Positions 2,301-56,408 of a stretch of 64,000 nucleotides of DNA are shown here, in pieces; position 1 is the stretch's first letter; each line of letters starts with the position of its first letter. Below the pieces are notes generated by a model. That model did no database searches. It saw nothing but the letters and a program-made list of their open reading frames with translations, and was not told where the DNA came from. The translations under genes were made by a program, and so were the position numbers. Source of the stretch: Amoebophrya sp. A120 (lineage: Eukaryota; Protista; Dinoflagellata); assembly GCA_905178155.1 (NCBI GenBank), contig CAJINV010000005.1:3651253-3715252 (forward strand), written 5' to 3'.

Positions 2301-2301
2301 C

Positions 2302-9149: not shown

Positions 9150-9299
9150 TCATATCCTCCACTCGCGGCCGTACACCTCAACACCGATGTGGTAGGCCCC
9201 AATAGTTTCCGTGGTTAGCTTACCAATCAGGTCGTTGAACTGTTTCACCTCTTTGCGGTTGGTAACATGGTAGATGTGCAGAAAAACGTCGCCGAGCAT
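9150..9299 (-). pseudogene. Second copy of the PPPDE N-terminal fragment
   Basis: Same sequence as 2302-2451 at offset +6848. Confidence 0.8.
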
Positions 9300-10371
9300 C
9301 TTGATCTTCTAAAAATTCATCATATGATGCGAAGCAAAATGATATAACAAGGTAAATCGAAAAAATCCTCCTTTTTGCATCATCAAAGACAGTGACAAAA
9401 AGCGAGACAATTATTCGCGCTTGAAAACACCGGCATGGTCGGGCGAGCGGTAAACTAAAACCGTACAAATCTTTAAAATCAAAGACCGAAAAAATGTTCT
9501 TCTTCATGATCACGTTGATGCTCTTGTGGTAAGTATGTAACTAAGTACCTCCCTCTGGCCATCCTATAAACAGCGTACAACGTCGGATCAACAAAATTAT
9601 TGGCAGCTTTTCAAGCTCCGGAACCTTTTTGCTTTTACGTCGACCTATTTCTTCACACTTGAATGTAATTTGTACCTGCGCTTATCATACAGGCACGATG
9701 ATAATCTTGCGACTGCGAGGAAACGGGTCTTCCTGTCGCAACAAAAACTTCTGACGACGAAAACACAGAATCGAATCGACAACCAAGAGCGCGGCACGAC
9801 GAGGAGAGAGTCGGACTCTAAGAACTGCGTACTGTCGCTGTGCTGTGTCCGTGTCACTTCCCCGCGCCATGAACAATACAGCACGAAGTTGTCACAGCTT
9901 TCGCGATAAGTTTTTTTTTGATGGTTTGTTTTTTTTTCCCCGCTGTTGTTCTTTTTTCTCGGCTACACTATCAGCTCCTCCACATTGGGAGCATCTACCG
10001 CTTATCCGGTAGTTGCACCTAGTCACTCGTACATTCGAAATCATTTTTTTTGAAATGAAACATTCGAAATCATTTTTTTCTCTCGTATGCATTTAAGTAC
10101 ATACTCGTTCCAAAGCGAACAGTTTTTGCAGCCATGCCTGAACTACCAGAACCGGTCAATGGAGTCCTTCTAACTTCCGTCCCGCAGGAGCCGGGCCCTC
10201 TTTGCAGCGATAGACTCCTCCTCTTGAAATGGGATCCCCGTTGCCCCCTGCGACTGAGACGCAGCGGCCGACGGGCCTCGCCAGGCGGGGGGGGCATCTG
10301 CTGCACTTGGAACGTCGCTGGTCGGTTGCGAAGGAGCGTTGCTTTGATGTCGTGACGTAGAAAAAATGTAG

Positions 10372-11856: not shown

Positions 11857-12451
11857 GCTGCTCATCTTGTCGACACAATGGGGCTGCTTGCAAAGAACAG
11901 GCCTGCTGGTGGACTTTAGGCGTTTATTTCGTAGTTTAGAAACATCGTCATGACGGAGAAATGAATTGAATAAAGTTGCATTATCACAACTTGCAATCGA
12001 CATCGAGTACGATAACAACCAAACTCATTTTTCACTGTCTTACACCGGAGGGAAAAATGGGACACACTTCACGCAGGTGATGACACCGCTCTCTTGTTCC
12101 CAAACTCCCCTATATCAACACAGACAAGTCACTCACACAACACCTTCTAACAGACGCTCGTCTATCTTCCAGCTTTAGTGATTGAGTATTTGTGCGCGAA
12201 ACACAAGTGTCATTTCCCGGCGGAATGACATCGCCGAAAACGAATTCGAATCGACGAAGAACGCAAGAAATGATCTTGATTTGTCGTTTGAGCATGTCGA
12301 CATTGTGCTGCGTCTTGTCATCGAGCAAAAATGTTCACCACACGAAACCGTAGGTGTTGCGCAAACTGCTTTCAACAACTTCGTGCGGAGTCTTTCTTGG
12401 CGGCACGTAGTTTTTTTTCACCGACTACACTCCTAAAAAATTCCTCAACTT

Positions 12452-21449: not shown

Positions 21450-23830
21450 AAAAATCGAAAATTTTGCTATCATAACTTTCTGCAGAAAATGATTCCCCGC
21501 ACGGTAACTGTCGTTCTCAAGCTTCCACTTCTTCAGGTACATCTTGATTTCCTGAAAGGATGGATGTTGCAAGAAGGGTTATAGAAGTTTAAAAAGTATA
21601 AAAGTTGGAGACACAGTAGTGAGTTTTCGCTTCCTGCTGCACCACCTGTGTCTGCTACTGCTACTCAGACTTCTCACCAACAAGAAGTATAAGAATCGAT
21701 GTACAAAAACAGCAAAAACAAGTTCACTGACTTTCTCGTTCACGCGTTTTGTTTCTACCATGCCCACTAGCACAGAAATAAACAATAGGGCGGTAAAATC
21801 GGAAGCAAGAGGGGCTTGAATCTGTATACATTCATTTACCTTCCACTGCTCCTTCGTGATGGCCTGTCCCGTTGGGTCTAGGATGAACAAAGGTGGGTTA
21901 CATTCGTCTGACCCTAACCCCCGCTAGTGCCCACCCACTAGCGGGGGTTTATGTACTGGAAGAGACCAAAATAAAGCACAGAGAAACTTCAAATTTTCAG
22001 GAAAGGAGTGTGGAGAACCAACTAGCGGGGGTTAGAACTTTTTGGAAAACAGACAACCTAACCCACCCTTGTTCGTCGGATCCAAATCATGGCGCTTCAC
22101 ATCGCCGGGTGGGCTCCGGCGATCAGGGTCGGCGAGCCTCCAAAGACATCAACTACAGAACAGATCTGCAGCGTACCACCCAGAATAAAATATGCCACCA
22201 TGGTATGGGGCGCGGATTAATATCGCGCACCAGGCCATGCTGCAGAGCCCTACTCCCGACGGAAAACTAAAGGGCTACAATGCGAATTTCGCACCCGCCA
22301 TGCCGCGCGAAGGGTGAAATGGGACTGGGCATAACAAGTCACGACACAATACCTTGAGCCAAAAGCCTCCCACTGCAACACGCTTGACATCGATTTCATA
22401 ATCCACAAGTCTCAATAAGCGACGCTTCAGGTTGACATCAGTGCACTGAATGCCGAAAACCTGTCGCGCCAGATCTGCACACACTTAATTGAGACTTGTG
22501 GACTACAAGATCAATGTGTCAAAGCTTGCGATGTCGGCACTTTGGCTCAAGGTGCAATGGCGTGAGTTGCTACGCCCAATCCCTTTTCACCCCTCACGCG
22601 GATTGACAACCACAGCGACGCACCCAGGGGCCGCCCGCGTGGAGGACACGCATGCAGGAATTTTTGGCCCCCTAGATACAACCGGAAAAGTGCTTTTCTG
22701 TTCCCTCACCACGAGCGGCTTTATCCAGCATTTTACTTCTCCATGTGATGCCGCTTTTTCGCCTTGTTTCGCGCCCTAGTTTTTCTGTTTGTGATTTTTC
22801 AAACCGAAGCAACTGCCACGACCTACTTGCGGCCCCGCTTTGCCCTTTGGTTTTTGCGCTGGAACCCGCGTCAAAAAGTAGAATTGTGACCCCGTGCGTA
22901 AATTGAGGCTTTTGAAGTACCTTCCACTGCTCCTTCGTGATGGCCTGTCCCGTTGGGTCGCACAAGTCTGCTTCGTACTTCATTTTTGATTTTTTCTCCC
23001 ACAAAGATTCGACCGGTCCGTTTCTGTTTTTCTGCCTTCGAATCTCGTTGTTGTAGGCGTCGAACTGGTATGCAGCGCAAAAGTGTACTATCGTGCTCGT
23101 ACTTTGTTTTTGCAATGTTACTGCATGACAAATCATCTTCTTCTACTACCTCGCGTGAGACACAAATGCCATTTTTCTCTCTGTAAAAATTTGTGATGCA
23201 AAAAATCAGTACTAGCGCAATATTACGTTTGCAATGCGTAACTGGATTACAAACTCGTTCTTGTACTTGATCTCCAGCATTTTCGAAAACGTCGCCAGCC
23301 ACCACATCCGGTAACTAAACTCATGGATTCCGGTATGCTTTTGGATGTCCTTTTCACCATTACAGAAGTTTTGTTTCGAAACTTTCTGAAAGAAAAGGTA
23401 TCGTCCATGTACTTAGGTAGGTTTCTGCTCTTGAAGAAAGTTGTTGGCTTGATGCATTTAGACGAGGAAGATGGTTCAATATCTTCATGGTTGAAGATGA
23501 TTCCTTTGTTCTCAAAAATGCAACGTAATGTAGTTCTCGGATGGTGAAAAACATCCAATCGCATATTGGGTGCACGATCCAAAAGTTTGCGCTTGGGTCT
23601 GTTTTGATTATTTTTGTTTCGAGGGACGACGAGCGCAAACATTGTAGTGCTGAGTTACAGGATACTATGCAGGCAGAGCGGCAACAAAAGCAAAAGTATT
23701 GACGATGAAGTAGATGATCCGTATAATAATGTACACCAACTTTACCCTCTTCCACGTCTCCGAGGTGTAGAATTGCAACGACTCGTATCCTTTGGAAACT
23801 CGCCCAAGCCGACGAAGCCTTCATGATCAT
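21450..23830 (-). CDS. Possible multi-exon gene of unknown function, interrupted by an intronic insertion
   Basis: Exon-like ...KYEADLCDPTGQAITKEQWK|gt joins in frame to cag|EIKMYLKKWKLEND. Limits are uncertain. Confidence 0.35.
21879..22917. mobile_element. 1039-bp composite insertion between identical 42-bp direct repeats
   Basis: 21837-21878 equals 22918-22959. Contains a ~200-bp foldback (21880-22081) and a ~300-bp imperfect palindrome (22303-22601). Confidence 0.8.
22530..22588 (+). ncRNA. SL-RNA-like cassette (degenerate); inverted partner at about 22316-22374 on the minus strand
   Basis: gatgtcggcactttggctcaag matches the dinoflagellate SL at 16 of 22 bases, is followed by GT and then a ccctttt tract 29 nt later. 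Confidence 0.4.
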
Positions 23831-25099: not shown

Positions 25100-28000
25100 C
25101 GAAATATTTCCAGTTGGATACTTCGCCTTGAGGAACCCGGGGTTCGGATACCGCTCTACCGGGTGTATCAGCGGCCCGGCGATGCCGAACGGCGTGCCGC
25201 CGGCGGGCATCTTCGCGCCCTTCGCGACGGCCTTCTTCTGTGCGTAGTCCATCTTGTAACTCCCGCCACCATACATGCTGTAGGGGTCGCCAAACGCCGT
25301 GTTGCCCGGCGTGGGGGTGTTAAACTTGTTGAACGAAGAACCCGAAGACGCCCCACTCGATATGTTGTGACTACTCCCCGTGGCGCCGCCCGTCATACCG
25401 GGGTAGTACTGCCCGCCCCGGTGTTGGTTGTGGAACATGGCCTCGGCGGAGGAAACCTCGGACGGCGTATTGGGCATGTGCTGGCCGCCGGGCTTCATCC
25501 TTATGCAATACAAATTTACTCCTGTACACATACTACACGACCACGCGCCGACGTACAGAGAACTACATCATGACGATTGATTTTGCGAAGAACTTGTGGT
25601 TTACAGTGCTGTCTGCAAGAACGCTTGCACTTGTCATGCTTTACTTGGGTAAGGCCCGCAGCTTCTGTGAAACTTTTAATCGCGCAGCACATTCCTTGTT
25701 TTAAGCCTTCGAATGCCTAATCTAGGAAATCGCGTTCATTAGGTTTAAGCATTAAAATGCCTAAACTAAGAAGTCGCAATTTAAGCACTCGAATGCTTAA
25801 ACTCACGGAAACGCGGATTGCAATTTGCTCTAGCAAATTTTCGTTGCGTTCCTTCCGAGTGTTATCCAGAGCACACACCCAAGCGGCCCATTGGACCGCG
25901 CCTATTGGGGCTGGGTCAAGCAGGCCGTGCCTAGCTTCCGTAGCGGGGAACGGCCCACTCCACCACCACCTGGCCCCCAGGGCAAGACCCCCCAGAACCC
26001 CACCACCGGTGGTTGAATGGGGGGAACCGCGCCAGCCCCAGCCCCACTTGCCCCCACGGGGAAGACAGAAACAAGCGAAGCGGTATGCGTAGCAGGACGC
26101 GCCCCGCTGACGCCAAAACTTGATATCAACAGCGGCCACAGCAGTCCCCGTCGCGGGCTGTGATTCCCGACACGTCGTTTGGAGAAGCAGCACTGCCTAC
26201 AAACGGGCGGCAGGAGCGAGAAAAGCCGACCAGGAAAAGTGTGAGCGCGCGAGGAAGCGAAAACGTATACACGGAAGTAGACCCTTACGCTTCAGCACCA
26301 AATCCGCAGTAGACAAGAAAAGTGCGCCAGTGAAAACCCCTGTTCGACCCCGGAGGCACAAGCACCCCCATAGCAAGTTCCGGCACGACCATCCGGGTCA
26401 AAAATCACCAAGCGCCACCTATCACCAGAGAAAGTCAAAACCAAAGGTCGCAGTGACAGCGTTGTGGCCCCAAAGAGCATCCCCCCGAACAAGCCCGAAA
26501 CCCGGAAACGTCGTCCCCTACTAGCCCCCTTTGAGAGAAAAAGCAAAAGAAAAAGCAGTCCGCTGGGTAGCAAGACTTAGTCCAGTGTGGCGGCAAAGCG
26601 TCACCATCCCCCGGCCCTGAGTATAGATGCGGCCCTACGCACCAGTCCCCTCCCGGGACCTCCTATTTCCACATCTAGGAAAGCATGTCCCGCAAACACA
26701 GCGGCAATTGGCGGCGAGGTGTCGGCGGCAGCACCCTGCCGATAGGGATTGTCTTATCCACCACAGCCTGAGACAACAGCAACAGAGGACTACGAGGTAG
26801 TCGGCCGCCCCCACCTGAAGCAGAACCTGGCTCCCCCCAGGAGCTTGTGGTTTAAAGTTTGATTTTACGAAGAACTTGTGGTTTAAAAAAGTGCTGTATG
26901 CAAGAACACTTGCACTTGTCATCAAAATAGGATTTTTGAAAGCCAGTTTTAAGATGCAGAAACCGCATCTGCACGTCGTGTAGCTAGTCGTCCGGAAATA
27001 AACTTACTGTGGATAATCTTGTATCGTTGCGCACTGTACTCCGAGCCGGGCGTCCCGTCGGAGTCCGCGCCGCCGCTGGACAGAAAACTCCCCGGGGGCA
27101 TGTTGCCGCCACCTTTTGTATTAACATTCAAGGCGTGTGCTAATAAATCTAAACTCATTACAAAAATCTCACATGATCTGAATCAGATTTTCTTTGCATC
27201 GTTGTCACTGTCGTGCACAATCGGCATCTTCAGTCACGTCTTGGTGAGAGAGGTGGCCGTGGCGGTGGCCGGATGTGAGGGCACCCTCACATCTTTCCTG
27301 TAGTTGAAGAACGACCAGCAATCGTATAAACGAGCTAAAGTATTCAAAACTACACCATTATGATACCGAGTAAGTTCCCGCGGTAAGATCCGTCCGAAGC
27401 TCCATCCGAAGCGTTGCCATCCCCTCCCATGTTTATTCTCTTCGCACTCCCCGACCCCGACGAGGGTGTGCCACCTTGGTCGGAATAGATCCGACCCCGT
27501 TTATTACTTCTCTTGTTCTTATACTTCGCCTGTGGCTCGTCCTCGTCCTCCGAATTAAATCCCTTCGCCCTATTAAACAAGTAAAGAAAGATAAGCGACA
27601 TAATTTGTTCTCTAGTAGAAAGTCATGTAGTATAATTTGGTCATGTGGACAAGGAACTACTCCTGACATCACACCCGACTCGATAATTTCGATGCTTCGT
27701 CTATACGTCTGCGTATGTGCAATATGAAAACAAAATAAAAATCTAGTACATTTTGTCGGGTAAGTCGACGGACTTTGGCTTTTTCTCGGTGTATGGGTCG
27801 TCCGCACCGTCCCATTTTTGCCGGTTGTGATGCCCTTTTACCTGTTTCTATCCTCTGCAAAAACATCTGTATCGTCACAGCGACCCTCGTTGTACGCCTT
27901 GCAATAGTGATATATGTTGCTGAAGACAGAGGTAAGACCGTTTTTGTCCAAAAGATCTCCATGCGGTCTCGTTCTATTTGTACATATTCCGTGTCTGTGG

Positions 28001-30468: not shown

Positions 30469-30917
30469 TTTTGTGCTTTATTTGGTCCTTCGTGTTACCT
30501 CACTTCGTTACAGCTCATAGCTCATCTCCACTAAAACTAATGGACAAAAATGCTCCTTGTCCAGATCTTCAATTTTATTCGACTGCAGTGAAAAAAACTC
30601 TTCTTCCTGTTTTTCCGCCCTTTTGTCTTGGTTTAAAAAGAGCATAATTCTTTTAGCAATGCAGAGGACGAGGCGCAACAGTTTATCAATGCGGCGGATG
30701 TTGAAGGGGGGAGCAGATTGGAGAACATAAGTGGTACTACTTGCAAGAGACGACGACTTTCCTCAGAAAATCGATATATCGACTTGATGTCCTGCATGAC
30801 GCCAGCAGGCTGCGTCGTCTACTCATTGTCTCAGAACACCAAATAATTGGATAGAGATACTGAGCTCTCAAAATCGGGCGTGAAATACAAAATGTTCCTA
30901 GAACTACCAAATATAGC

Positions 30918-31633
30918 CGCCGGGGCGGAGGTAGTGAGGTCGTGGGCGTTTTCTTGCCGGCCGTCGCTTTGGCCGCGGCTGTGCTTTTCCTGGGTTCGCC
31001 ATACCGTCGTGAGTAACGTTAGGCCGCACGGTATGGCGGCCGCTTTATAAACGTCGCAAATTTTGGCAAATTCCCGATATTCCTTTCCGAAAGCCAGCCC
31101 CCATGCTATGGGGCCGATCCGGGTGCCACAGGGGGCGCCCAAAAAGCGAAGGGAAGTCGGGCCCTCAGCATGCGGGTTGGCTTTGCGCGTCTGGCGCGCT
31201 TTTGCTTTTTTGCGTTTTTACTTTTCGCGCCGGCGCTTTTTGCAAAGCTTCCCAGGCTCTGAAACCGGCGAAAATTCGGCCGCTTTCGCGGCCGCCCAAA
31301 ATGCTCCGAAATCGCGGCCGTGCCGTGCTGTTTCGCTGTTCTGATTTTGGGCGCGTTTTTTTCGCGCCCCTTTTTGGGCGCCCCAAACCGCCAGAAACTA
31401 AGGCGGTGGGCGCCTCAGAAGGGCGTCCCCTTTGCTGGCTTGTCTGCGTCGTTTTACCCAGCGGCGATCGATAGAATCCGCTGGCGATTCGGTGCCGACA
31501 CAGCCAAAGCTGCTTGATAATTGAAAATTTTTTATGTCCAAAAACGCTTCCCGCCGCTTAAAAACTGCCGGTCGTTTTTCAGGGTATATGGCAAAAAAAC
31601 TCCCCGGTTAGAACCGTTCGGTGACCTCACTAC
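30918..31633 (+). mobile_element. GC-rich interspersed repeat related to the 3' part of the element at 47897-49297
   Basis: 31316-31629 is a close reverse-complement match to about 47932-48246. The left end ccgccggggc...gtgggcgttttcttgccggcc also occurs at 47895. Confidence 0.8.
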
Positions 31634-32427: not shown

Positions 32428-33904
32428 TTACTTATTATCCTTGCCACCTCCACCCCCGGCGCCACCTGGTGGCACTCCCGTTGCCGATACTTTTGCGATG
32501 TCTCGATAGGTCTGCTTTCCCCAGGAAAAGGGCACGTATCTGAAAATTTTGCATTTCAACGTGACAAGAACATATAGGTATAGCTGCATCTGTACAAAAA
32601 TAAACTACTACATCAAAAAGTAGAGACTCATGCAAGTACGACTAGTTCAAGCTCCACTTCGACTTCCGGCGGCATAAAGTAGACTACAGGAGTGCACGCG
32701 GAAATAACTAGTAGACAAACAGTACTTGTATTTGATCATGTGCGCCACTCGGTCCTTCATGGTGATGAACACCAGGAGGATGAAGTACATGAGTAGTATC
32801 GGCCAGAACACGGGGAGGTCGAAGACGCTGAAGAAGGTCATGAAGATCGAGATCCACACCATCCTCGTCCCGGCGACCCAGATATCAACCGCAAATATGT
32901 CTGGGTCTGGAAGAGTGCCAGACTTGTCATGCAGGTTTTCCATGACCCATGGGGTCTGGTATGTAGGACATAGCATGACAGAATCTGTGATAGTTGTATG
33001 ATGCCTATTCTGCATGAGAAACTGCATCTCGATTAGGTCACAAGTGGACAGCTTTTGGTAATAAATCATGCAACACAGATTTTTACATGATTCAGATTTA
33101 GCATGACAACTTCGGACCTTCCAGACCCAGACATATTTGCAATGCATACCAGAATTTGAATTCGGGCAGTTTTCTGCTAAAGGGGCGGAACTCGCCGTCC
33201 GACCGCTCTTCCGTTACGGAGGACGCACCGGTGGGGAGGATGGGCCCATCGTCGTCCATTTCGTCGGGGTCGAACTGAGAGCAGTTGCAATGGTTTGCGT
33301 TTGTGTATCAAAAAAGAGGAGAGACACTGACACAACTTTTGCTTTTACGCATGACTTAGTTGAAAATTCCAAATTAGCTACTACAAAGCGCAATCGTTCC
33401 GTATCACGATGGCACATCAAAAGAGAGATTATAGTGAAACAATAAAAACCAAATACTGCTGGTGAGAGGAAGCCGATGAAGAGATTGAGAAGGTAGATCC
33501 CGAGCATGTAGGTCACGATGTAGAAACCGTGAAGGAAGTACACCCGTATGCAGTACCTGTTGAATTAGAATTTGATTCACTTTTACTATGTGCTCACGGT
33601 GGTCCTGGTCCCGTTGATGCATGCATGAACTGCAACTTGAACAACAGTAGTAGGGGAAGATGAATTTTTTTACTATGAATATATCATCACTCTTCAAACA
33701 AAAACGAAACCGAAAGCACCAAAAAAAAACTACATTAACCAGTTTTATATACAGTAGGAGTGAAATGGCGAAGAAAGCCCATCTCTGCGTGGGAAAAATG
33801 ACTGTTCTGTCGAGCTGCGTCTGTGCTATTCTCTTGTATTTCAGCCACGCCTTCTGTGCCGGTGGTGTGCTCGTGGCACCCTCGCCTGGCCGGGGTAGCT
33901 CCAT
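32428..33904 (-). CDS. RER1: Golgi-to-ER retrieval receptor Rer1, 5 exons
   Basis: [66 protein letters not shown]. Confidence 0.96.
32883..33148. mobile_element. Introner family 1a in RER1
   Basis: Family-1 TIR, exact duplication CCAGA. Removal gives EFKFWVAGTR. Confidence 0.95.
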
Positions 33905-36699: not shown

Positions 36700-39166
36700 T
36701 CACTGAAACTGCATTTCGTTCCTCCTCTTCTTTTGATTCCGATATCAAATGTAAAAATGTCTGGGTCTGGAAGAGTGCAAGATTTGTGATGTAGGTTTTC
36801 CAGGACCCATGAGGTCTGGAATGCGAGACCCAGCATGACAGATTCTTTGAGGTCTCTACCATGCCTGTCCTGCATGAGAAACTCCCCCTCAACTTGGTCA
36901 AAAGCGGACAGCTTTTGGCACTCACGCGACACAGATTTTTGCATCATTCAGATTTAGCATGACAAGTCCTAATCTTCCAGACCCAGACATTTTTGCATGT
37001 GATATCCGATCGACAAACTCGATTTCGTCTTCGCTGTCTTCGTATCAAATGTAAAAATGTCTGGGTCTGGAAGATTCCGAGATTTGTCATGCAGTTTTTC
37101 CAAGCTCCACCAAGTCTGGAATGCAGGGCCTAGCATCACAGGTTCTGCAGCCCCTTACTGATGCCCATTATGCATGAGAAATGCCCTCTGAGCATGGCGA
37201 GAAATGGGGACCTTTTGCAAGTCATGCAACACAGATTTTTGTATCACCCGCAACACGCATCACAAGTTCGCATTCTTCCAGACCCAGACATTTTTACATT
37301 TGATACTTCGTCCGCTGAGGGAATTTCCCGTGTTCCGATGGTTGACTTTACATTCCGGCCCCCTCGGTAGTTGTCATCCCCACGTTTATTGTTGTTCCCA
37401 CCTCCACCGCCCCGCGGAGGATTCCTGTCCCCCCGATCCCGATCGTCCCTGCCCCGGCTGCGGTCCCGACTGCGGTCCCGGTCGTTGCCACCGCGCTGCG
37501 GCTTCAAAAACTCCTTCGGCGGCCCACCGGCCTTCGGCTTCAGATTTGCGGACGACCCTCCGCGGGTCGTGTTGTTGTACTCGGCCGGTGGGCCCGCGTT
37601 GCGGCTTCCGCGGTCGTCACGACCTCCACCACGGTTGTTCCCTCCTCGGTTGTAGTTGTCCCGGTCATCGTCCCGTCCGGTGTCGCCCCACTCCTCGCGG
37701 GAAATCTTGTTGACGGAGGCGATGTCCCGGTGTTCATACGGGTTCCCGCCCTTCTGCGCAGAGGTGTTTCCGCTGTACATCACCTGAGACTTCTGCCCGT
37801 TTTTGTCCACGTGGTACACCACCTTAGTTCCCGAACCCGCAGGAGGTCCCATGTTAGAACCACTCGTCGGTTGTTGCTGCACGACCGCTGTACTGGCCGC
37901 TGCGGCGGCGGCCGCGACCTGCCGGTCCTTTTCCGCATTCTGCTGCTCCAAAGCCATGATGTCGTTCTCCATCCGGACGCGTCTGGCCGCGTGCCAATCG
38001 TCTAGTTCTTGCAACTTCGACTCGTAGTAGTCCGCGGCCTCGCGGAGTTTCCCCTCGTAGTAAAACTGGATCTCCTTTTTCTCGTTCTCCAACTCCTCGT
38101 CCCAGCCCCGCCCCCACCAGATGGAGTCTTTCGACTTCGGCACGTACCAAACCGGATAACCACTGTGGTTGAACAAACAGCCCGCCACCCGGCACTCCGG
38201 GCCGTTCTTACACGTCGACGCCCGGCACTTCTGGATCGTCTTCAGGGCCTCGTCCGCGTTCGCGTGCACTTTGTCGCACTGTTCCGCGGTCTGGTCACAG
38301 CAGCCGGTGAGAAAACGGAAGCAAATCGTCGAGCGACCGCCCTTGACGACGCGACGAATGTATTGGTCTTGAATGCTACCCTTCACCGGCCCGCCGGGGT
38401 GCTGGTACAGGCAGTTCTTCAGTTTGCAGCGATCCCCGTTCCGGCACGGGAGGGAAGCGTAGTAGCTGTAGACTTTGTCCAGTTCTTCCGTCGGCGGGTG
38501 GCGGAGCGGGCAGAGGTCCTGGAAGGGGCACTCGCCGATCAAGTACAAGCGACACAGCTTCTTCCGGTCGTCGTTGCAGACCACGCATTGCAAATCGTCG
38601 ATGTGCCGCTCAAACACTTCTTCCTGAGAATTTCGTTTTCATTTGTGATAGTACGTCTTTCTCTTTTCATCCACTAGAAAGAGCAAATCATATTTGCCGA
38701 TTGTTATCTGATGGTGCGCGGTGGAAGTCTTGTGCTAATGTGCATCATGACAAAGTCCATTTCAACTGTACCCTATGCAACACAAATCAACTTTTATTAC
38801 CTCTTCCTCCTGCGATTCAATTTCGGATTCCGCGTTGGCAAACTCCTGCGAGAATTCGTCCACCACACTGGCCTGATCGACGTCTAACTCCAGAACATCG
38901 GCGTTGTCCAGAAACAGTTGACAGGTTTTGAAGCACTGCGCGGACGAGAGGCGGAGACTGGTCAGGTCAAAGTTGTCCAGGACCGCATCCGGGGCGGAAG
39001 ATTCCCCATCGGCTGCTTTCAACAGTGTCTTCGCCAGTTGTTCCAGCTGCTTGATGGAACGCGGCGTCAAAGCGAGCAGCTTAATGTTCTGATTCAACAA
39101 CTCCAAAGCGTGGGCACCCTGCGCTCGGGTGAGCTTCATCGAAGTAAGGTCGAAGAACTTCCCCAT
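36700..39166 (-). CDS. Multiple CCCH zinc-finger protein with an RG/RD-rich tail, 4 exons
   Basis: CRLYLIGECPFQDLCPLRH, CRNGDRCKLKNCLYQH, CFRFLTGCCDQTAEQCDKVH, CKNGPECRVAGCLFNH. One GT-AG intron and two introners. Confidence 0.88.
36743..37004. mobile_element. Introner family 1a
   Basis: Family-1 TIR, exact duplication TCCGA. Confidence 0.95.
37043..37305. mobile_element. Introner family 1a
   Basis: Near-perfect 31-bp TIR, exact duplication CTTCG. Confidence 0.95.
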
Positions 39167-43166: not shown

Positions 43167-46100
43167 CTAGGGAGGCGGTTCTCCATCTCCATCTCCGCCG
43201 CCTCCTACAACGTCCCCGTAAAAGTACACACCCATTACCCCCAGAGCGATTACCCCCAGGAGGAGGCGAATGCTGTTGGTTGTGTCTACGCCAGTATCAA
43301 GAAGAAAAATCCCCCCTCCCCATATCGAAAACGTATCCGTCTGAAAATTTGTGATGCGCATTTGTGACCTCAAATCCTGTCTGTCTTGCAAGAAGGCAAG
43401 TCCAGAAAGCGTTCCGCATTTTGCAGGCGGTTTGTGATGCTGTTTGGCTTAGAGCATACACGTGTGTCATGCTAGGCGCCTACGTCTAAACCTCTCGACT
43501 GAGGCTTGACATATGCCAGCATTCCTCTACTGCAAGACAAATCTGACTTGTGTATGGAAATCCAGCATCAGAAACTTCGTTTCGATATGGGGAGGGGGGA
43601 TTTTTCCTTTTGATAGCCAGCAAAACTAGCCATGCCCTCGTCCGCCGTGTTCAAACGGTATGCAAGCGGAAACGGAGTCTTTTTTCAAGTTGAGTCAAGT
43701 AAGGTCATCTTGAAAGTGGAATAAATATTTCTTGTTCTTCGTGAACGTGACGCTGGTGGCGTTCTTACAACAGCATTTACTATACATGGTGAATTATATC
43801 GTACCCGAGAAATTGGACAGACCAAAATCGTCCAAATGACTCAACCTCCGGAGGACAAATTCTCCCGCCATCCATACACTTGTACTCTTTCCCGCCACGA
43901 CCGGCTTGAGAAGGCAGCAGATTTCCTTCGTGCATTCGCGGTGCGGCTCGCAGGGCTGGTCTAGAAGAAGTTCTTCGTCCACCGAGCAATAGTTCTCCAC
44001 GACCGGAAGCAGGGACTCGCACAAGAGCATGCAGCAAGTTATCGCATCCTTTTGTGTGTCCCGTGCAAAAGTTGCATCGTCGTGCCAGCGAGAGCAGTCG
44101 TACAATACTGCATGACAAATCTATTCCCCGTCGCCTCTCAACCTGTACATGACCTGGGACGTCGAAGTAGAACGATAACAACTTAATTCGCATTTCGTGT
44201 CTGATGATCTGTTTTATATGCAAAACAATACGCCTCTAGCCTCATCCAAATCTTTTGCAATGGATACTCTGGCACACACTCATGCGACGCGCACGTGGGA
44301 ATATCCGCCTCGGGACCTTTATGCAATACAAATTCCGCTGACGCTGTGCTTAGCTTGTACCTACCAGGGCGCGGAGGCGGAAGTACAATCTGTTTGGCTG
44401 CAGTGCTGGCAACCCAACAAGTTGCTCCAAAATACTAGACATTAACTTCCATTAAAAAAAGCGAACTGTGTCAGAAGACAAGCCTGGGCTGCATGCGAAA
44501 CCAACCTGTAGTTTAACTTTTATTAAGTTTCTGTGTTGTAGTAAACAAATTAAGCGCAACAGTACAGCGGTATTGAATTTCCCTGAGATACCCATTCACC
44601 TCGTCATACTCACGGAGAACTTGCGTGGCTTGGGTGCCTGTGAGTGTTGTTTCGTCCGCTCCCGCGCTCTCTTCCTCTTCTTTCACTTGCTCGGCGGTTC
44701 GGTTCACGCATATGTCTGCCTCTGTTTGGGTCTTCGCGGAGGTCAACATCGCGTTGCTGCTGGACGAGGCGAGTCGGGACAACGAAGACGGACCGGAAGA
44801 TCTATTGCTTGTGGTCTCAGTTTGTGCTACAACTCCGGGTGTCGTCGATGTGAGATGAATACTATGAGCAGGATCAACATCAACATCAGCACCATCATCA
44901 TCTCCTACTCTCGTGGCAGTGCTTGTACTACTGGCACCATCGGCCGTCGGCGTCGACGTGGTCAAGGACGACGCTGCGCTGATGCGAGTATCGGGAATAT
45001 TTTTGCTCCTGCTTGTGTCCTCGCCTACTTCTACCACATCATCTGCATCAAAACCATATCGTCCTTCGTTCCCGTGGCCTATCGCGGGACTCACCCGCCG
45101 GAGCCGACGCTCCGAAACCGAAGCAGAGGTGGGGGCAGACGGGGTAACAGAGCCTCCGGCCGCAGCTTTGTCGTCTGCAGGAGGTGGACCAAGAGTCAAA
45201 ATGTAGTCATGTTGCTCCGCTTGTTGCAATACATCATCTGGGCGCCGTTCATCTCGCTCTCGCTCGAAGACCTCTAGCCTCGTTGGAGAAGGTGGCCTTG
45301 ACGCAGCTGGCCGTCGTGCTGTGCCCCGTGTTCTTGCCATGTGGCTCGTCCTGCCTTCTTTGTGATAAAATGAACTTGCCGCGGAAAGGACAGAGGCTGA
45401 CGCAGCTCCTGTTGACAATGCACTGCTACCCAGCGAACTGCACTTCTTCTTACAGATTGGTATGTCTGCGTCGTTGTTTCGGAGTAGATATCCGTCCTCA
45501 CACGTCTTGCAGGCGTGCGCGCCCTGGGCCGGACACTTTTCCCCCTCCGCGCCCGTTCCGCGCGGGCAGGTGCACGTCTTCTTCTCGCACGCTTTGGAGT
45601 CTGGGTTCAGCTCAAAGCCCGCGTTGCAATCCTCGGTGCATCGCTCCGCGCCGTCCTGGTCACAAGCTACCGCGCCGGCCGCGACCGCGTGACCATGGAT
45701 GCAGATGCACTGGTTGGCCACGCAGACCATGTCCTCGTTCAGATGGTACCCGTCCGCGCAGTCGGTGCAGCGCGACTGGCCGTCGCCCGGACACGACGTG
45801 TGCCCGAGGGCGACCGGCGTCCCGTGGTCGCAGACGCACTCGACTTGCTTGCAGCATCTGAGTATCAACTGTAAAAATGTCTGGGTCTGGAAGAGTGCGC
45901 GATTTGTCATGCTGCTTTTCCATGACTCATGAGGTCTGGAATGCAGGACCTAGCATGACAGATTCTGCGAGACCTTGCTTTCCAATGCCTATCCTGCATG
46001 AGAAACTACCTCCCGACTTGGTCAAAACTGGACGACTTTTGGTAATCATGCAACACAGATTTTTGCATGCTGCAGATTTGGCGTGACAAGTTGCATTCTT

Positions 46101-49100
46101 TCAGACCCAGACATTTTTACATTTGATACTGGGGCGGTCCGCGGCGGTGCAGGTTTTTCCGGCCGCCGAGCAGAGTATGGGGTTCTCAATTGTTACATTC
46201 TCAACTGTTACATGAATTTGTGATGCTAAACCGACCGAAACCACAAACGCAACCCATAGGGCACCTTTCCGCAGATGGTCAGGCCACCGGGTCGCGGAGA
46301 ATTTGTGATGCAAGAATAGCAACACGAAAAGGCCGGAAATTGCAACTCTTGCATTACAAATTCGACACAGATTCCCATGCTCTTTAGCGCTTCCAAAATT
46401 TGTCATGCGAGGCAGCTTCACTGTGTGGACGTTGGTGCTCATTTTGCATGACAAATCATGTAACGGTATGAGAATGTAACAGTTGAGAACGCCATACAGA
46501 GGGTGAGGGCCTTCGAAACATCGTAGGTCTGCCCCGCCTCGCACTGCAGTTTCGTCGCCAATATCGTAGAATCGTGCCACTCGCTGCAGGTCGCGATCGG
46601 GGTGGCGCAGAGGGCATAGGCGTTGTTCGTCCCGTCCTCCCACGTCACCTTCTTGGATGTGCACTTGAAACCAGGAGTCGAAGACGAAGATGTCGAATCC
46701 ACATTGACAAAATATGACGCGGCGAGGAAATTGTCTGGATCGTTATTGTTCGGAAGAATAGCGCAGCCGCCGCCGATAATGTAGGTGTGCCTGGGACAAC
46801 TAACGGTCCTGGTCCACCATGACGTGTCGTCGCCTGCCGGATGACCTGGGGGGTTACTGGTTGTTAACTCTTCCTTGAAAACGTACCGTCCAAAATCGGA
46901 CCGGACGCAAATAGCCACGGCCGTCATGGTATCGATAGAAGAAGGACATATCTGTTGGCATTTCCACCCTTCTACTTTCGGCCGCGTCTCCTTCAGATAA
47001 CAGTTGGAGGAACTCGAGATGTAGCAGCCGCCGCCGACCACCTCCGTGCCCGTCGGGCAGTTCATTTCGACGCTGAGTGCGGTTTGCGAAGTTTTTCGGT
47101 AGGAGGAAGGGGAAGTCATTTTGCCACCATCTTTCACCGCGTCCGCCACACACACGCCAACATCACGAAAAAAGGCTGTCGCGGCGGTCTCAACCCTACT
47201 TCGCACAAAACCTTTGTCTTATCAGACGCACAAGTAGAAAACACATATGAGATGCGCATTTGCATTTCTTGCAACATGTCGTCGAGAATGATGACAGAAA
47301 GAGTCTCGCCGGTCGCGGAAGAGAAAGAATGTGAATGTGCGCATTACAAGTTGAGACTGAAACATTTTTTTCTCGCGATAACCGGCCCCGAACATAAAGT
47401 CCATCGCGTCCTTGTCGTTTGCGCTGGCGACGCGGCCAACGGTGTACTTCCCTTTATCCCCTGACTGCTCGGCGTCTGGGGCGCAGGCGGTGAGCCCCAA
47501 GTCCCCGTCAACCACATTCAAGCTGGCGCGCCCGCACGCTAGGCCCAGGGCAAAGCGGCCGGCGCCCTCGCAGCTTTTCGAGGACCAAATTGCGGCGTTG
47601 TCGACGCTATCGTCTCGGCGCCACTGAAGCGTGACTGGCATCCTGTACTAGAAAATCTATTCTTCCAAAGGCCGATCTTCGCATCACGGCAGGCATACCT
47701 GCTTACTACTACTTCATCTACTTACAACTCATACTGACAATCGTATCAAAGCATCAAATTATGTTGCAGCTGCAGGACGAAAAATAGAAAATAAATCATG
47801 CACGACTTTCAAGAATTTCGTTTTTGCCTGCATGTTCGCTCTCTTGCAGATCAAATTCAAAGCATTCGCGATCAACGTGATGACGTTAGATTTTCCGCCG
47901 GGGCGTGGGCGTTTTCTTGCCGGCCCCGGCCTTGAGGTCACCGAGCGGCTCTAACCAGGGAGTTTTCTTGCCATGCATCGCGCAAAACGACCGGCAGTTT
48001 TCAAGCGGGCGGAAGTCTTTTTTGACAAAAAATATTTTCAATTATCAAGCGGCTTTGGCTGTGTCGGCACCGAATCGCCAGCGGATTCTATCGATCGCCG
48101 CTGGGTAAAACGACGCAGGGGAGCCGGCAAAAGGGGCGCCCTTCTGAGGCGCCCACCGCCTTGGTTTCTGGCGGTTTGGGGCGCCCAAAAAGGGACGCGA
48201 AAAAAACGCGCCCAAAATCAGAACAGCGAAACAGCATGGCACGGGCGCCATACAGCTCTTCTGCTGCCGCTAGCAGTTCCGGGCGGTAGTCTTTGCCAGG
48301 TTTTCCGGATCGGAAGCCCCTGGTATTCAGGACGAAGAGGGTGAGAGGGAACCTCTTCTCATCGCTTTTGACCTCTATGAGCGGCGGCTGGATGCAGCGC
48401 TGGTCTAACTGTTCCGTAATCTTCTGGCTGGATGATTTCGAATCCATCTCCTCGAAGCGGGTGCGTATCTGTAGTTTCTCCTCGTCGCTGATGGTGGTTA
48501 CTACGTCATGGTGCTGTTGCCACCAGCCTCCTTTGGTGGTCCTCGAGATGGCGAAGGGCAGGCCGTCGCGCCAGAATATGCTGCCCTTGTTGACTGCATC
48601 CGCCAGATCTACGAGGAAATTGGTAGCATCCCGAGGAACTGGTGCTGCATCATACTGTTCGCCATCTTGTTGTGCATCATCAACTGGTTCCCGAACATGT
48701 TTGGCGCCATCATGTTCGCCTGCATGTCCGGCCCCATCATCGCGTTCGGTAGCAATGGGGGGAGGTTTTGGTAGGTGTACTGGATCGTCGGTGTTTGCGT
48801 CTGGAAACCGCTTAGGAACTGGTCCACTTCTTCTTCCTCGGGCGACTGGTCTTGGATGGGGGTGGATGTTTTATTCCAGAGCGTCGCGTTGCCCCCTGCC
48901 CATTCGTCCAGGAAAGAAATCACCTGCTGGTCTGTGATGCGCGTGTCCTTGTACTTCCCCTCTCCTTTGATGAAATCTCGGGCGACGGCGTAGAGCCTGT
49001 CTCTTCGGTGATCGTCGGTCATGATTTGAATTTGAAACTTATAAAATAATTTTGCTGCGAAAAACACCGTGAGAGCGGAGAGCCGATAGCATGAAGAGTC

Positions 49101-50358
49101 TCTCTGGGCGGGCAGCTCTCATACTTCCGTCCCCAGGCAGGGAAGGAAAAAGGGAAAAACAGAAAAGAAAAAGCCCTTCTTCTTTCTCTCTCCCCCCCCA
49201 CGATGAAATAGATTCTTGCTTCCTCCGGAGAGTAGGAGGCAGAAAGAATTCGATAACGAAGGATAATCTCTCATCCTTGAGCCAAAATGGCTACGGATCA
49301 AATTCAAAGCATTCGCGATCAACGTGATGACGTTAGATTTTCCACAGCGTAATCTGCCCGAAAGGACCAATGTGTATTGGAACTTCCTTCGTGTCCACAT
49401 AGACTTGCCGTGAAGCAGTAGATGCAGATTCGCGTGCGTCCCCCGCTAGTGCGCCCAGATCCTGTTGATCGACTTGGCTCGCCGATGTCGCTACTCTGGT
49501 GACCTGTCCGGGTCTAGTGCGGTGAAGACTGGTGGAACTACTTATCGGTCTACTTGTTGCAGCACTTGGAGTTGCTGTTGCATTTCTCGTAGTTGTAAGA
49601 CTACGGTCTTCCTGCCTCACGTCGTGATGTCCAGTGCCATCATCTGGTCGACGACCACGAGGACGTGGTGTAGTGTTTATTTCATGTCCACCTTTCCCCG
49701 ATGGCACTTCGGGAGACGTTGTTGCTGTAGGAGAGGGTCGTGAGAGATGAAGGGTCGTCCTCGACGTGGGGCCGCTGCTCTGATCATGGTCGTTCGCCTC
49801 TTGGTCTTCTCTTCTCGTAGTTGTTCGTCCACCATCATTGGTACCGTCATACCGATACCCACCACCTTCGGATCCCTCGTGGTCGAGGAAAACGCCTATT
49901 TTTGCCGTCTGCTCCGCCTTCGTCTTCACTTCAGCAGCGCCTTTGGATCGAGATCGTGGAAATGGAGATCGAATAAAAACGTTCTTTGCGCTCTCGTCAG
50001 TCTGGATGTAATTATTGATGTCACCAGAAGCGCCGCTACTTCTTTCCCTGCTCTTGTCTGGCTGGAGGCCGGTGGTCGCCCCATCAGCTTCAGAGGTGGC
50101 TCCGCTGCCCACTATTCTAGGAACCAGTGCCGTCGTGTCGTTGTCAAGCTGCTCCCGGCGGACCAGCGCGAAGGACAGCTGCAGTGGCAGCAGAATCAGA
50201 AAGAAAACCAGCAGTGTTGTGGTGATCGTTCTTGGACAATAGAAACACACAGCACGAACTGTATTCGACGGATCGTTCTTCTTCTTCCGACAAAGCAACG
50301 CGAGTCTCAGTAACCGTACCAGACAGAACGAGTTGACGTCGAGCAACCTCCAAGCCAT
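43167..50358 (-). CDS. Large Cys-rich surface or type-I membrane protein (link between the 49.4-50.4 kb exon and the rest is uncertain)
   Basis: Hydrophobic N-terminal segment, two CPxxxxxxGGGC modules, three or more CxCxxG...CxxCxxGY/F repeats, an S/T-rich spacer and a C-terminal TM helix (LLLGVIALGVMGVYFY). Confidence 0.72.
43295..43615. mobile_element. Introner family 3
   Basis: TIR aaaaatcccccctccccatatcgaaa, exact duplication GCCAG. Confidence 0.93.
44320..44590. mobile_element. Decayed introner
   Basis: TAT...ATA ends, flanks acctt/cccat. Removal gives VNGPEADIPTC. Confidence 0.6.
45863..46128. mobile_element. Introner family 1a
   Basis: Family-1 TIR, flanks ctgag/ctggg. Confidence 0.93.
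46176..46496. mobile_element. Introner family 2
   Basis: TIR tatgg(g/c)gttctcaa(t/c)tgttacattctca, exact duplication CAGAG. Confidence 0.92.
47897..49297 (-). mobile_element. Spliced-leader-capped, internally deleted non-LTR retroelement copy with a 46-48 bp target duplication
   Basis: 47849-47896 equals 49296-49343. The 5' end is the full SL. ORF1-like frame 49023-48609 and an overlapping -1 frame ending in LTLFVLNTRGFRSGK...ELLAAAEEL, then the repeat shared with 31316-31629. Confidence 0.8.
49276..49297 (-). other. Perfect dinoflagellate spliced-leader sequence (genomic relic)
   Basis: Minus strand reads TCCGTAGCCATTTTGGCTCAAG, 22 of 22 with DCCGTAGCCATTTTGGCTCAAG. It is followed by GA, not a GT donor. 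Confidence 0.97.
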
Positions 50359-53877: not shown

Positions 53878-56408
53878 TTAAAACTTCTGATGGTCAAACT
53901 GGTCCACCGTGATCTCGCCGTTTTCCTCCTTATACACATACACGACCACCTTTGCGTATTGTGAGGAAAAATCCCCCCTCCCCATATCGAAAAGGTACGT
54001 AATTGGCAATGCTGATTTGCGACCACAAATCATCTCTGTCTTGCAAGAAGGCAACTTCACAGGCTCCGCCGCTTTATGAAGGCGGTTTGTAATGCTGTTG
54101 GGCCTACAGCGCAGACGTTTCTCATGCTAAGAGCCCAGCCCAAAACCTCTCTGCTCAGGCTTGGTATGGGCCTGCAGTCCTCTCCAGCAAGACAAATCTG
54201 ATGTGTGTACGCAAATCCAGCATCACAGACTTCGTTTTGATATGGGGAGGGGGGATTTTTCATTTTGATATTGCGCCCTGCACCGCCATCAGCATGAAGC
54301 TTGGTGTGGACTGTCCCATGGCCGGTAAGGGCGCAGGAGCGGCGGGCACCGCCGGCACAGCAGAACCATCCTCCGGTGGATTCTGTTGCATTACGTCGGC
54401 CGCCACATCGAGATTTGCTATCTGTTCTGTGACCGCATTGACTGCGGGGTCGGTAGCTGCGGGTGGCGGAGGTGGTGGCGGAACACCTTGTTCACCAGGC
54501 GCACTGTCTTCACCTGCAACGACCGGAGCAGCAGCTGCGACCTCGGCAGTCATTTTTTTCATGCCACTCGGCATTACGGCGTCAGCCGGGTCTGCTGCCT
54601 CACCCTCGGCTTTCGGAGCTTTCGTCACTTCAGCTCCTTCCGCGGTAGGTAGTGACGATGTGGTCTCGTCGGATTTACTTTCTGTTCCTTGTTGTTCCGC
54701 CGGGGTGTTCGTTTCAGCTCCCTCCTTGTTCGTTGCAGCGTCAGCTCCTACTTCCGCCTTTGCATCTGCTTCTTCTGCAGCAGTTTCAGCACTTTTGTCC
54801 TCCCCTGACGCAGCTGCTCTTCCGTTTACGACCGTCGCTGCCTCTCCTTCCGGTCCTGCAGCACTGGACTTAGACCCGGTTTTATTCAAGTTCGCCACTG
54901 TTGCTGCACTCTCCGGTGGTCCACCGGCTGCACCCGTCGGACTAGGTTGCTGCACGGCCGTCGCTATCAAATGCAAATATGTCTGGGTCTGGAAGACTGC
55001 GAGATTTGTCATGCTAGTCCGGCATGACTCTGCACTCTGTATTGCGTGGCCACCAAAAGGCCCTCTTGCCTGTCATGCAAAAGCGTAGTTTCTCATGCGA
55101 AATACGCAGCACAGAAGCACGAAAAAACTTGTCATGCTTGGCGCCGCATTACAGAGCACTTATTGTTCACAGACTTGCATCACAAGTTTCCAGACCCAGA
55201 CATATTTGCAATGCATAGTCGCCAGCAAGGCCCGTGCCGCGTTCGCGAAGTCGTTGGCGAAGAGCTGGCTGACGTCGTAGTGCTGCGCCGCCCCGGTCGC
55301 GCTGCCCGTATCAAATGTAAAAATGTCTGGGTCTGGAAGAATGCGCGATTTGTCATGCGGCTTTTCCATGACCTGTGAGGTCTGGAATGCAGGACATAGC
55401 ATGACAGATTCTGTGCGATCTTATCCATGCCTATCCTGCATGAGAAACTGCCTCCCGACTTGGTCAAAACTGGACGACTTTTGGTAATCATGCAACACAG
55501 ATTTTTGCATGCTTCAGATTTAGCATGACAAATTGCATTCTTCCAGACCCAGACATTTTTGCATTTGATAGCCCGGGTTCAGAAACAACTTGTTTTCCAA
55601 GGCGAAGCACCGGGCTTCGTGCGTGTGCCCGGAGATCAGCACGTCGCAACCGAGCTTGCGCTGCCACTGGAGCAACGCGGCGTCGGATTTCCAGGGGAGG
55701 ATTTGGTATCCAAGAAAAAAAATGTTTTAGTGTAACTTTGTGTTGCAGAAAATGCAAAACTGCTACACTTGTCATGCTGGACATGCATCAGAAGCAACTT
55801 TCGTACGTGCTTTCACGTACTAGCTTCGCATGACAGGTTTTCTGTGTTATGCAGAGCAAACTTGTGATGCTATTCCTCCAAGAAACTTACACTCACACAG
55901 TTCTTTTCCTGCGTATTTGGTACCCGGAAATCATGCCCACCTTAAACGCGCCCACCTCGACCACGAGCGACTCGGGGAGTTCGCGGCCCAGGATCGCCTT
56001 GTCATCTGATTCGCCGCGGACGCAGTGGACTTCGTGACCTGCAGGTCGTGGTGGGGAAATTTGCAATGCCAACACCCTTTGCAGCGAAGAAGAAGCTTCG
56101 TTCCTGGTGAAAAAATAAGTCCTGCTTGGCAAGGACCGCTTGCGCTCCGCACAGCATCTAACTGAGCATAAAAACAACACCTGCCTCCGCGCAACATCAG
56201 CTTTTACAAACAAACAACTCTACTTTTTTTTACCTAGCCCCTGCAATCCATCCAACACGGCTTTGCTACCGCAGTTGCCCGTGCACAGCACGATCTTGAT
56301 TTTGTCCGTCTGCAGCAAATCCTTGAAGCATTCGGGAAGGTCGCGGGTTCGCTGCGGTATGTGCTGGTCGCCGATTACAAGCACGAGATCGCCAAACTCG
56401 AGAGACAT
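53878..56408 (-). CDS. VPS29: Retromer subunit Vps29 with a large low-complexity insertion, 6 exons
   Basis: [70 protein letters not shown]. Confidence 0.95.
53957..54270. mobile_element. Introner family 3 in VPS29
   Basis: Family-3 TIR, exact duplication TTGCG. Confidence 0.93.
54965..55217. mobile_element. Introner family 1b in VPS29
   Basis: Family-1 TIR, exact duplication GTCGC. Orientation is opposite to 17525-17777. Confidence 0.93.
55309..55570. mobile_element. Introner family 1a in VPS29
   Basis: Near-perfect TIR, exact duplication GCCCG. It splits the NPGS motif. Confidence 0.95.
55707..55915. mobile_element. Introner (decayed TIR) in VPS29
   Basis: Exact duplication TTTGG. Removal gives GYQILPW. 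Confidence 0.85.

What the first reader, a model, noticed from the sequence alone, without database searches (positions are those of the whole stretch)
47849..49343. A LINE-like element copied from a trans-spliced RNA: full spliced leader at the 5' junction and a 48-bp target duplication
Seen: a 1.4-kb insert between identical 48-bp repeats. Its minus-strand 5' end is the complete 22-nt dinoflagellate SL, sharing 2 nt with the repeat. Next come a pyrimidine-rich leader with a second possible acceptor (tttttcgcag), a short ORF1-like frame, and an overlapping -1 frame (open from about 48870) ending in LTLFVLNTRGFRSGK...ELLAAAEEL. The sequence then jumps at about 48245 into a GC-rich repeat also present at 31316-31629. 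There is no poly(A). Established: xxxNxxGL/F is motif I of APE endonucleases in non-LTR retrotransposons, and SL relics mark retroposed mRNAs in dinoflagellates. Inference: a LINE family whose transposition RNA is cut from host transcripts by SL trans-splicing, here as an internally deleted copy. Such a family could be the machinery behind SL-relic retrogenes.
Basis: partly seen in the sequence, partly recalled or inferred. Interest (0 to 1): 0.85.

Follow-up and report, generated by a model that had tools for sequence, protein, structure and literature searches.

The report
Spliced-leader-capped broken LINE-like insertion
A 1.4-kb insert in an intron of what is likely a parasitic dinoflagellate starts with the exact 22-letter leader these cells splice onto messenger RNAs and sits between two identical 48-letter repeats, so it is likely a broken copy of a LINE-type jumping gene made from a leader-capped RNA, a likely but unproven candidate for the machinery that makes dinoflagellate retrogenes.

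Summary
Observation confirmed: exact 48-bp direct repeats, a 22/22 dinoflagellate spliced leader at the minus-strand 5' edge, two overlapping frames, a jump into a dispersed repeat, no poly(A). The leader is followed by GA, not GT, so this is no SL-RNA gene. Public contigs show a second copy, about 3.5% diverged, that runs about 3.95 kb past the break; its next ten codons resemble the second endonuclease motif. That supports a LINE, but weakly: no database hit, no reverse transcriptase seen. Spliced contigs place the insert inside a non-canonical, introner-type intron of a 659-codon host gene, pointing to an Amoebophrya-type genome. Best reading: a dead, chimeric retrocopy of an SL-capped LINE RNA whose 3' part comes from an abundant host repeat. 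Not shown: that the family normally moves through trans-spliced RNA, that the repeat is the LINE's own 3' end, or that it makes retrogenes. Two other inserts in the window have 42-64-bp repeats without SL. New variant of a known kind; moderate interest.

The parts
49296..49343 (-). 5' copy of the 48-bp duplication (positions +3 to +50 of the host intron; holds the intron's 5' inverted-repeat arm)
49276..49297 (-). complete 22-nt DinoSL, first 2 nt shared with the duplication, followed by GA (no splice donor)
49023..49275 (-). 253-nt leader, 45% GC, pyrimidine run, candidate acceptor AG at 49055, three upstream ATGs (51, 27, 17 codons)
48609..49022 (-). ORF1-like frame, 137 aa, acidic then Met/Gln/Asn-rich; no homologue found
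48252..48870 (-). overlapping -1 frame (ORF2-like); 48252-48597 is shared with a second copy; ends in a motif like the first block of exonuclease III/APE endonucleases
47933..48251 (-). block of an abundant dispersed repeat, 90.6% identical to 31311-31629
47897..47932 (-). 36-nt 3' end, 78% GC, matching the opposite end of the 31-kb repeat in inverted orientation; no poly(A)
47849..47896 (-). 3' copy of the 48-bp duplication
47628..49345 (-). host non-canonical intron that holds the insert: 1718 nt now, 271 nt without it; 5-nt direct repeat at the borders; 11-nt inverted arms (10 of 11 paired) at 49344-49334 and 47649-47659
46439..50358 (-). host gene, three exons (50358-49346, 47627-47383, 47157-46439) giving an open 659-codon frame; start codon inferred; function unknown, no Pfam hit on its pieces
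30916..31633 (.). second, longer copy of the dispersed repeat with 11-nt inverted ends; donor family of the insert's 3' part

Best explanation
The insert, which starts with a complete spliced leader and lies between exact 48-bp repeats inside a host intron, is likely a dead retrocopy of an APE-type non-LTR (LINE) element that was likely reverse-transcribed at the target site from an RNA capped by SL trans-splicing. Inferred steps: (1) a donor copy lying in a host transcription unit was trans-spliced at the G at 49275, giving an RNA that began with the SL; (2) a full-length element, for which the 4.2-kb relative is a candidate, supplied endonuclease and reverse transcriptase; (3) staggered cuts 48 bp apart in the 5' part of an introner-type intron, priming on the RNA's GC-rich 3' end with 2 nt of homology and no poly(A), synthesis to the first base of the SL, and joining with 2 nt of homology; (4) the 3' 355 nt came from an abundant host repeat, either by a template switch during copying or by an earlier fusion at the donor, so this copy stops within the first 30 or so codons of the endonuclease and cannot move by itself. 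Because the SL ends in AG, each new copy would carry its own acceptor and would regain the same 5' end at the next round (inferred, untested).
For: SL flush with the duplication and 2-nt overlaps at both ends. No GT/GC after the SL, which all identified Fugacium SL genes have (PMC6616646, passages). A second copy differs at 11 listed places over 48252-48595 and continues about 3,955 nt beyond 48252; 7 of 11 differences are at third positions of the -1 frame (P=0.039), none makes a stop, 6 of 7 amino-acid changes are conservative, and the 3 nearest the motif are silent. Its next 30 nt keep the frame open as S-L-A-P-R-V-C-A-L-I, in register with PDIICL-type blocks of six viral exonuclease III proteins; the two-block score was reached by 2 of 2000 shuffles and by 6 of 127,930 window positions. 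Asn-to-putative-Glu spacing would be 35 against 27 in R1Bm endonuclease (PMC1919474, passages). Amoebophrya genomes hold non-LTR elements (PMC7789003, section 5); non-LTR 3' ends may lack poly(A) (PMC2881922, passages).
Against: No homologue: Pfam 0 families on both frames, PDB best E 0.36, 1.84-billion search one chance hit in a repeat protein, word searches none, metagenome and viral contigs none, Atlas no hit at 0.9. The motif score (20.7) is far below five of six true exonuclease III sequences (61-75 leave-one-out; the sixth 29); the second block alone has about a 15% chance within the allowed spacing, and the catalytic Glu codon is cut off after its first G. A full-length HMM of seven viral proteins gave no domain. 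Only 4 of 11 differences are silent (P=0.21). RT was never seen. About 95 codons precede the motif, more than in R1Bm. Only one SL-headed copy is known. Two other inserts in the window have 42-bp and 61-64-bp repeats with no SL and no similarity to this one, so long duplications need not come from this element.
Confidence: 0.6

Rival explanations
1. Ordinary SL-relic retrocopy of a host or unknown gene: the frames are not a LINE, and the endonuclease motif is a chance likeness.
For: All homology searches were blank; motif score modest; SL-tagged retrocopies are common in dinoflagellates (PMC5585692, PMC6050394, passages).
Against: The longer copy continues the frame with motif-II-like residues exactly where expected and has room for an APE-RT frame; overlapping two-frame layout; RNA contigs cross the frame overlap unspliced (record 14).
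Confidence: 0.17
2. It is a LINE, but the SL was already in the donor's DNA: an inherited, encoded 5' end (or one picked up by co-transcription from an SL-RNA gene into which the family inserts), so no trans-splicing is needed in each round.
For: One copy cannot tell fresh from inherited SL. DNA-encoded full SLs head genes in giant-virus contigs (134 sites). Elements that target SL-RNA genes exist in trypanosomatids and nematodes (recalled). Trypanosomatid LINE RNAs avoid trans-splicing (PMC1874656, passages).
Against: The SL is 22 of 22 perfect and starts at the junction; the duplicated target is host intron, not SL-gene sequence; the genome paper reports a single complete SL per Amoebophrya genome, which argues against many SL-headed donors if this genome is like those.
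Confidence: 0.14
3. The duplication was made by DNA repair or by the inverted-repeat element at the 3' end (templated insertion or transposon-end rearrangement), with an SL-headed cDNA captured as filler.
For: The insert's 3' end coincides with a terminus of the repeat family; no poly(A); two unrelated inserts with 42-64-bp repeats nearby.
Against: The SL start lies exactly at the duplication edge, as expected if copying ran to the RNA's first base; the 31-kb repeat copy shows no long duplication (survey).
Confidence: 0.07
4. Assembly artefact, or the locus is the SL-RNA gene itself.
For: No contig bridges the internal junction; an X4 contig runs flank-duplication-flank without the insert (record 11); the genome paper calls its single full SL an SL gene.
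Against: Both outer junctions are in X1 contigs with no differences, the 3' junction also in X3 and X5; insert pieces in the spliced-type runs match the window's copy at 0-1 differences; no GT donor; no Rfam match at gathering score. The X4 path crosses a repeat longer than the assembly word and may be chimeric, or may show an empty allele.
Confidence: 0.02

Closest known systems
DinoSL-tagged retrocopies / recycled mRNAs of dinoflagellates (PMC5585692, PMC6050394, PMC12014239, PMC3229502: passages read; Slamovits and Keeling 2008 as cited there)
   Same: SL sequence in genomic DNA at the 5' end of a reinserted message.
   Different: Here the SL is complete, flush with a 48-bp duplication, and the message is likely a retroelement's own; those papers state that the responsible enzyme is unknown and lean to Ty1/copia.
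APE-type non-LTR retrotransposons (L1, I, R1, RTE; PMC2881922, PMC1919474, PMC2887409: passages read)
   Same: Duplication at the target, leader + short frame + second frame opening with an endonuclease-like motif, no LTRs.
   Different: SL as 5' end; duplication of 48 bp against 6-20 bp quoted for RTE; about 95 codons before the motif; RT not seen; 3' part foreign.
Trypanosomatid L1Tc/ingi (PMC1874656, passages read)
   Same: LINE in a host that trans-splices its mRNAs, facing the same problem of keeping a full 5' end.
   Different: L1Tc uses an internal promoter and its RNAs are unspliced, with no SL; this copy carries the SL.
SL-RNA-gene-targeting elements SLACS, CZAR, CRE, NeSL (recalled; only search listings seen)
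   Same: Non-LTR element physically tied to SL sequence; long duplications (recalled).
   Different: They insert into SL genes and duplicate SL-gene sequence; here the SL is inside the insert and the target is a host intron.
Amoebophrya non-canonical introns / introner elements (PMC7789003, sections 10 and 11 read)
   Same: The host intron has inverted arms and a 5-nt border repeat, as described.
   Different: It is the landing site, not the insert; whether it has repeated family members was not tested.

Membership tests
APE-type non-LTR retrotransposon | Target-site duplication, no LTRs | tested here: met
   48 of 48 nt; empty form restores a 271-nt hairpin intron
APE-type non-LTR retrotransposon | APE endonuclease at the start of ORF2 with its catalytic residues | tested here: inconclusive
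   Block 1 present, block 2 likeness in the longer copy, 2 of 2000 shuffles; no Pfam, PDB or HMM hit; Glu codon and all later motifs unseen
APE-type non-LTR retrotransposon | Reverse transcriptase domain | not testable with these tools
   Absent from this copy; only 30 of about 3,955 further letters of the longer copy are shown; no genome held
APE-type non-LTR retrotransposon | ORF1 with nucleic-acid-binding motifs | tested here: inconclusive
   137-aa frame, no family or homologue
APE-type non-LTR retrotransposon | Dispersed copies, often 5'-truncated | tested here: inconclusive
APE-type non-LTR retrotransposon | 3' poly(A) or short-repeat tail (common, not required: PMC2881922) | tested here: not met
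   GC-rich end
DinoSL retrocopy | SL in DNA at the 5' end, joined to downstream sequence without the SL intron | tested here: met
DinoSL retrocopy | Parent locus with a native acceptor in place of the SL | not testable with these tools
   no genome held
SL-RNA gene | GT or GC donor directly after the SL exon | tested here: not met
   GA follows; criterion from PMC6616646
SL-gene-targeting non-LTR elements (recalled definition) | Insertion into, and duplication of, SL-RNA gene sequence | tested here: not met
   duplicated sequence is the 5' part of a spliced host intron
Amoebophrya-type non-canonical intron (host site) | 8-20-nt inverted arms and 3-5-nt border repeat, removed from RNA | tested here: met
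   junction in X4, X5, X6; arms 10 of 11, repeat 5 nt; definition

The most novel reading that the evidence does not exclude
A LINE family of parasitic dinoflagellates that has no promoter or ribozyme of its own and uses host SL trans-splicing to cut its transposition RNA out of host transcripts; the copied SL supplies the next acceptor, so the 5' end renews itself. It makes 40-60-bp duplications without poly(A), captures other RNAs by template switching, hides in non-canonical introns, and is the enzyme source for SL-tagged retrocopies.
Probability: 0.25. Interest if true: 0.75.

Novelty: new variant of a known kind. Interest (0 to 1): 0.45.

Why it matters
Reviews state that the enzyme behind dinoflagellate retrogenes is unknown. 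A retroelement copy that begins with a complete SL inside its target duplication shows that SL-capped RNA can be copied to its first base and gives a signature (long duplication, 2-nt overlaps, no poly(A)) that can be scored at host retrocopies. It is the opposite solution to trypanosomatid LINEs, whose RNAs avoid the SL. It also raises the testable chance that a lone full SL in such a genome is a retro-insertion and not the SL-RNA gene. The limits: one broken copy, LINE identity resting on short motifs, and similar, intact cases already noted elsewhere in this scan (unchecked).

Tried and rejected
No whole genome is held, so copies could not be counted. Protein searches all blank or chance. 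Single-sequence structure model unusable (mean pLDDT 38); no fold search made. Full-length HMM from seven viral exonuclease III-type proteins gave no domain for query or shuffles, so that control is void; a bacterial expansion found nothing. A degenerate scan of metagenomes for the nine-residue motif gave 28 stretches, none an endonuclease or relative by inspection and tblastn (best E 0.067). My first guess of a canonical GT-AG host intron ending at 47643 was wrong: contigs splice 15 nt further on. No RNA holder listed on record; raw-read runs X9 and X10 cover only a short piece of the repeat at mostly 90-95% likeness and none of the host gene, so they say nothing on SL-primed ends. No contig of X3-X6 covers 49229-49295, the SL junction; contigs cannot show ends and a hole proves nothing. 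Rfam: no match at gathering score in the window, only sub-threshold noise near the insert. No canonical slippery heptamer seen by eye at the frame overlap, so how ORF2 is read is open. A Walker-A-like word in another frame across the duplication lies in the intron and was dropped. SL sites in viral contigs do not model this insertion: 5 of 134 have 20 nt or more of upstream flank repeated downstream, and the three inspected short non-giant-virus contigs look like RNA viruses, not LINEs (by eye). Earlier-findings look-ups by place and by sequence were empty.
Full report
Observation. The 48-bp repeat is exact. The 22-nt dinoflagellate spliced leader (SL) lies at 49297-49276 on the minus strand with no mismatch, is the only match in the window at up to three mismatches, and none of 100 shuffles produced one; its sequence agrees with the motif printed in PMC5585692. 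Its first two letters are also the last two of the repeat. A 253-nt leader, a 137-codon frame (49022-48609) and an overlapping -1 frame open from 48870 follow. At 48246-48251 the sequence passes into a block 90.6% identical to 31311-31629. There is no poly(A).

Host context. No genome is held, so I used public runs and both lays. Runs X3-X6, guessed to be RNA, show spliced junctions. X3 removes 47157-47382, an intron with GT..TG borders and inverted ends. X4, X5 and X6 (one sample with X3) join 49346 to 47627: an intron with a 5-nt border repeat and 11-nt inverted arms, 10 of 11 paired. With these two introns the flanks give one open 659-codon frame (start codon inferred). Such introns, with a DinoSL, are described for Amoebophrya (PMC7789003, sections 5, 10, 11), so the genome is likely of that type (inference). 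The insert sits in sense orientation 50 nt into this intron; the duplication covers intron positions +3 to +50, including the 5' arm. Without the insert the intron is 271 nt and folds with its ends paired. The spliced product is the same for filled and empty alleles, so splicing of the 1718-nt form is not shown.

Are the junctions real? X1 contigs carry the SL junction (48568-49325) and the 3' junction (47867-47987) without differences, each with 30 letters in the repeat; a 48-nt contig of the repeat has about twice the word depth of the flanks (95.6 against 41-44). X1 may be the source sample. The 3' junction is also in X3 and X5. The internal junction is not bridged. One X4 contig runs from right flank through the repeat into left flank (record 11); since the repeat is longer than the assembly word this may be a chimeric path or an empty allele.

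What is the coding part? Every homology search was blank or chance. The useful evidence is a second copy: a 4,179-nt X1 contig matches 48475-48252 (6 differences in 224) and then runs on in other sequence for about 3,955 nt; a 150-nt contig extends the variant to 48595. Of 11 listed differences, 7 fall on third positions of the -1 frame (P=0.039), 4 are silent (P=0.21, not significant), 6 of the 7 replacements are conservative, none is a stop. The 30 letters shown beyond the break keep the frame open as S-L-A-P-R-V-C-A-L-I plus a codon beginning with G. Against a two-block profile from six viral exonuclease III-type proteins (L122 left out because its second block did not align), the motif pair scored 20.7: 2 of 2000 shuffles and 6 of 127,930 six-frame window positions reach this; block 1 alone ranks within 9 of 127,930; block 2, the independent part, has about a 15% chance; the training proteins score 29-75 leave-one-out. 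A full HMM found no domain. In R1Bm endonuclease the first catalytic residues are Asn-13 and Glu-40 (PMC1919474); here the spacing would be 35 if the cut codon is Glu. This is suggestive, not decisive; I put LINE identity at about 0.75. Reverse transcriptase was not seen.

The 3' part. 47906-48309 has summed word depth of about 4,900-38,000 in X1 against 41-44 in the flanks (not a copy number, but clearly an abundant repeat). The 31-kb copy is about 717 nt with 11-nt inverted ends. The insert's last 36 nt match the other end of that copy in inverted orientation, and the repeat's terminus overlaps the duplication by 2 nt. So the insert ends at a terminus of a host repeat. Whether this repeat is also the LINE's own 3' end (internal deletion) or was joined by template switching or an earlier fusion cannot be told; I favour a chimera because the repeat looks like an inverted-repeat element and far outnumbers the LINE-like part.

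Mechanism. Shown: SL flush with an exact duplication, 2-nt overlaps at both ends, position in a spliced intron, a longer relative. Inferred: target-primed reverse transcription of an SL-capped RNA to its first base (model as in PMC2881922); SL added by trans-splicing to a transcript read from a host unit; renewal of the 5' end because the SL ends in AG (trans-splicing onto an earlier SL's AG is described in PMC3229502, there at the inner AG, which would truncate it). One copy cannot separate a fresh SL from an inherited one. It is not an SL-RNA gene: GA follows the SL, whereas identified SL genes have GT or GC. PMC7789003 reports a single complete SL per genome and calls it the SL gene; its Fig. 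S6 could not be seen, so whether that is a site like this one is open.

A caution from the window. Two other inserts have long repeats: exact 42 bp around 1,039 nt (21837-22959) and 61-64 bp at 89% around 1,221 nt (25577-26922); neither has an SL or poly(A) at its ends or similarity to this insert. Long duplications are thus a local habit. They may be products of the same enzyme or of another process.

Comparison and novelty. SL-tagged retrocopies are known and their enzyme is stated to be unknown, with Ty1/copia favoured. Trypanosomatid LINE RNAs are unspliced. Nine literature searches listed no paper whose title or opening describes a dinoflagellate LINE copy headed by the SL; I read passages of twelve papers and named sections of one of them, none in full, and subscription journals are mostly not covered. 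Earlier notes of this scan describe intact SL-headed LINEs in other dinoflagellate genomes; they are unchecked leads, agree with this reading and lower the uniqueness of this broken copy. Verdict: real feature, new variant of a known kind, interest 0.45.

Noticed in passing
L001-L119 (IMG/VR contigs): The exact 21-nt SL core occurs at 134 distinct sites, most listed contigs being giant-virus bins; 127 of 134 have A before it, 105 of 134 have a frame of 100 aa or more starting within 150 nt, 5 of 134 have a repeated flank. Looks like virus-encoded SL heads behind AT-rich promoter-like words; earlier scan notes report the same.
   Followed up: partly
L047, L049, L067: Short contigs with RNA-virus-like frames (by eye) that carry the SL at or near an end.
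   Followed up: no
window 21837-22959: 1,039-nt insert between exact 42-bp repeats, rich in inverted repeats; holds an inverted pair of SL 3' ends (12 nt at 22364-22353 minus, 11 nt at 22541-22551 plus), each followed by GT, as an SL-RNA gene relic would be. No Rfam match.
   Followed up: partly
window 25577-26922: 1,221-nt insert between 61-64-bp repeats (89% identical), no recognised frame.
   Followed up: partly
window 16303-16577, 32881-33149, 36741-37007, 37041-37307, 45862-46130, 55301-55573: At least six copies of a 260-270-bp element with about 50-bp inverted ends, 71-92% alike; likely introner or MITE family.
   Followed up: no
window 1-12784: Tandem array of a unit of about 3.6 kb, 85-96% identical between copies; tested frames had no Pfam hit.
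   Followed up: no
window 47157-47382: 226-nt GT..TG intron with inverted ends, spliced in X3; its ends fit an introner motif described in PMC7789003.
   Followed up: yes
window 13589-15253: Long minisatellite block (13-, 16-, 22-, 27-nt units).
   Followed up: no
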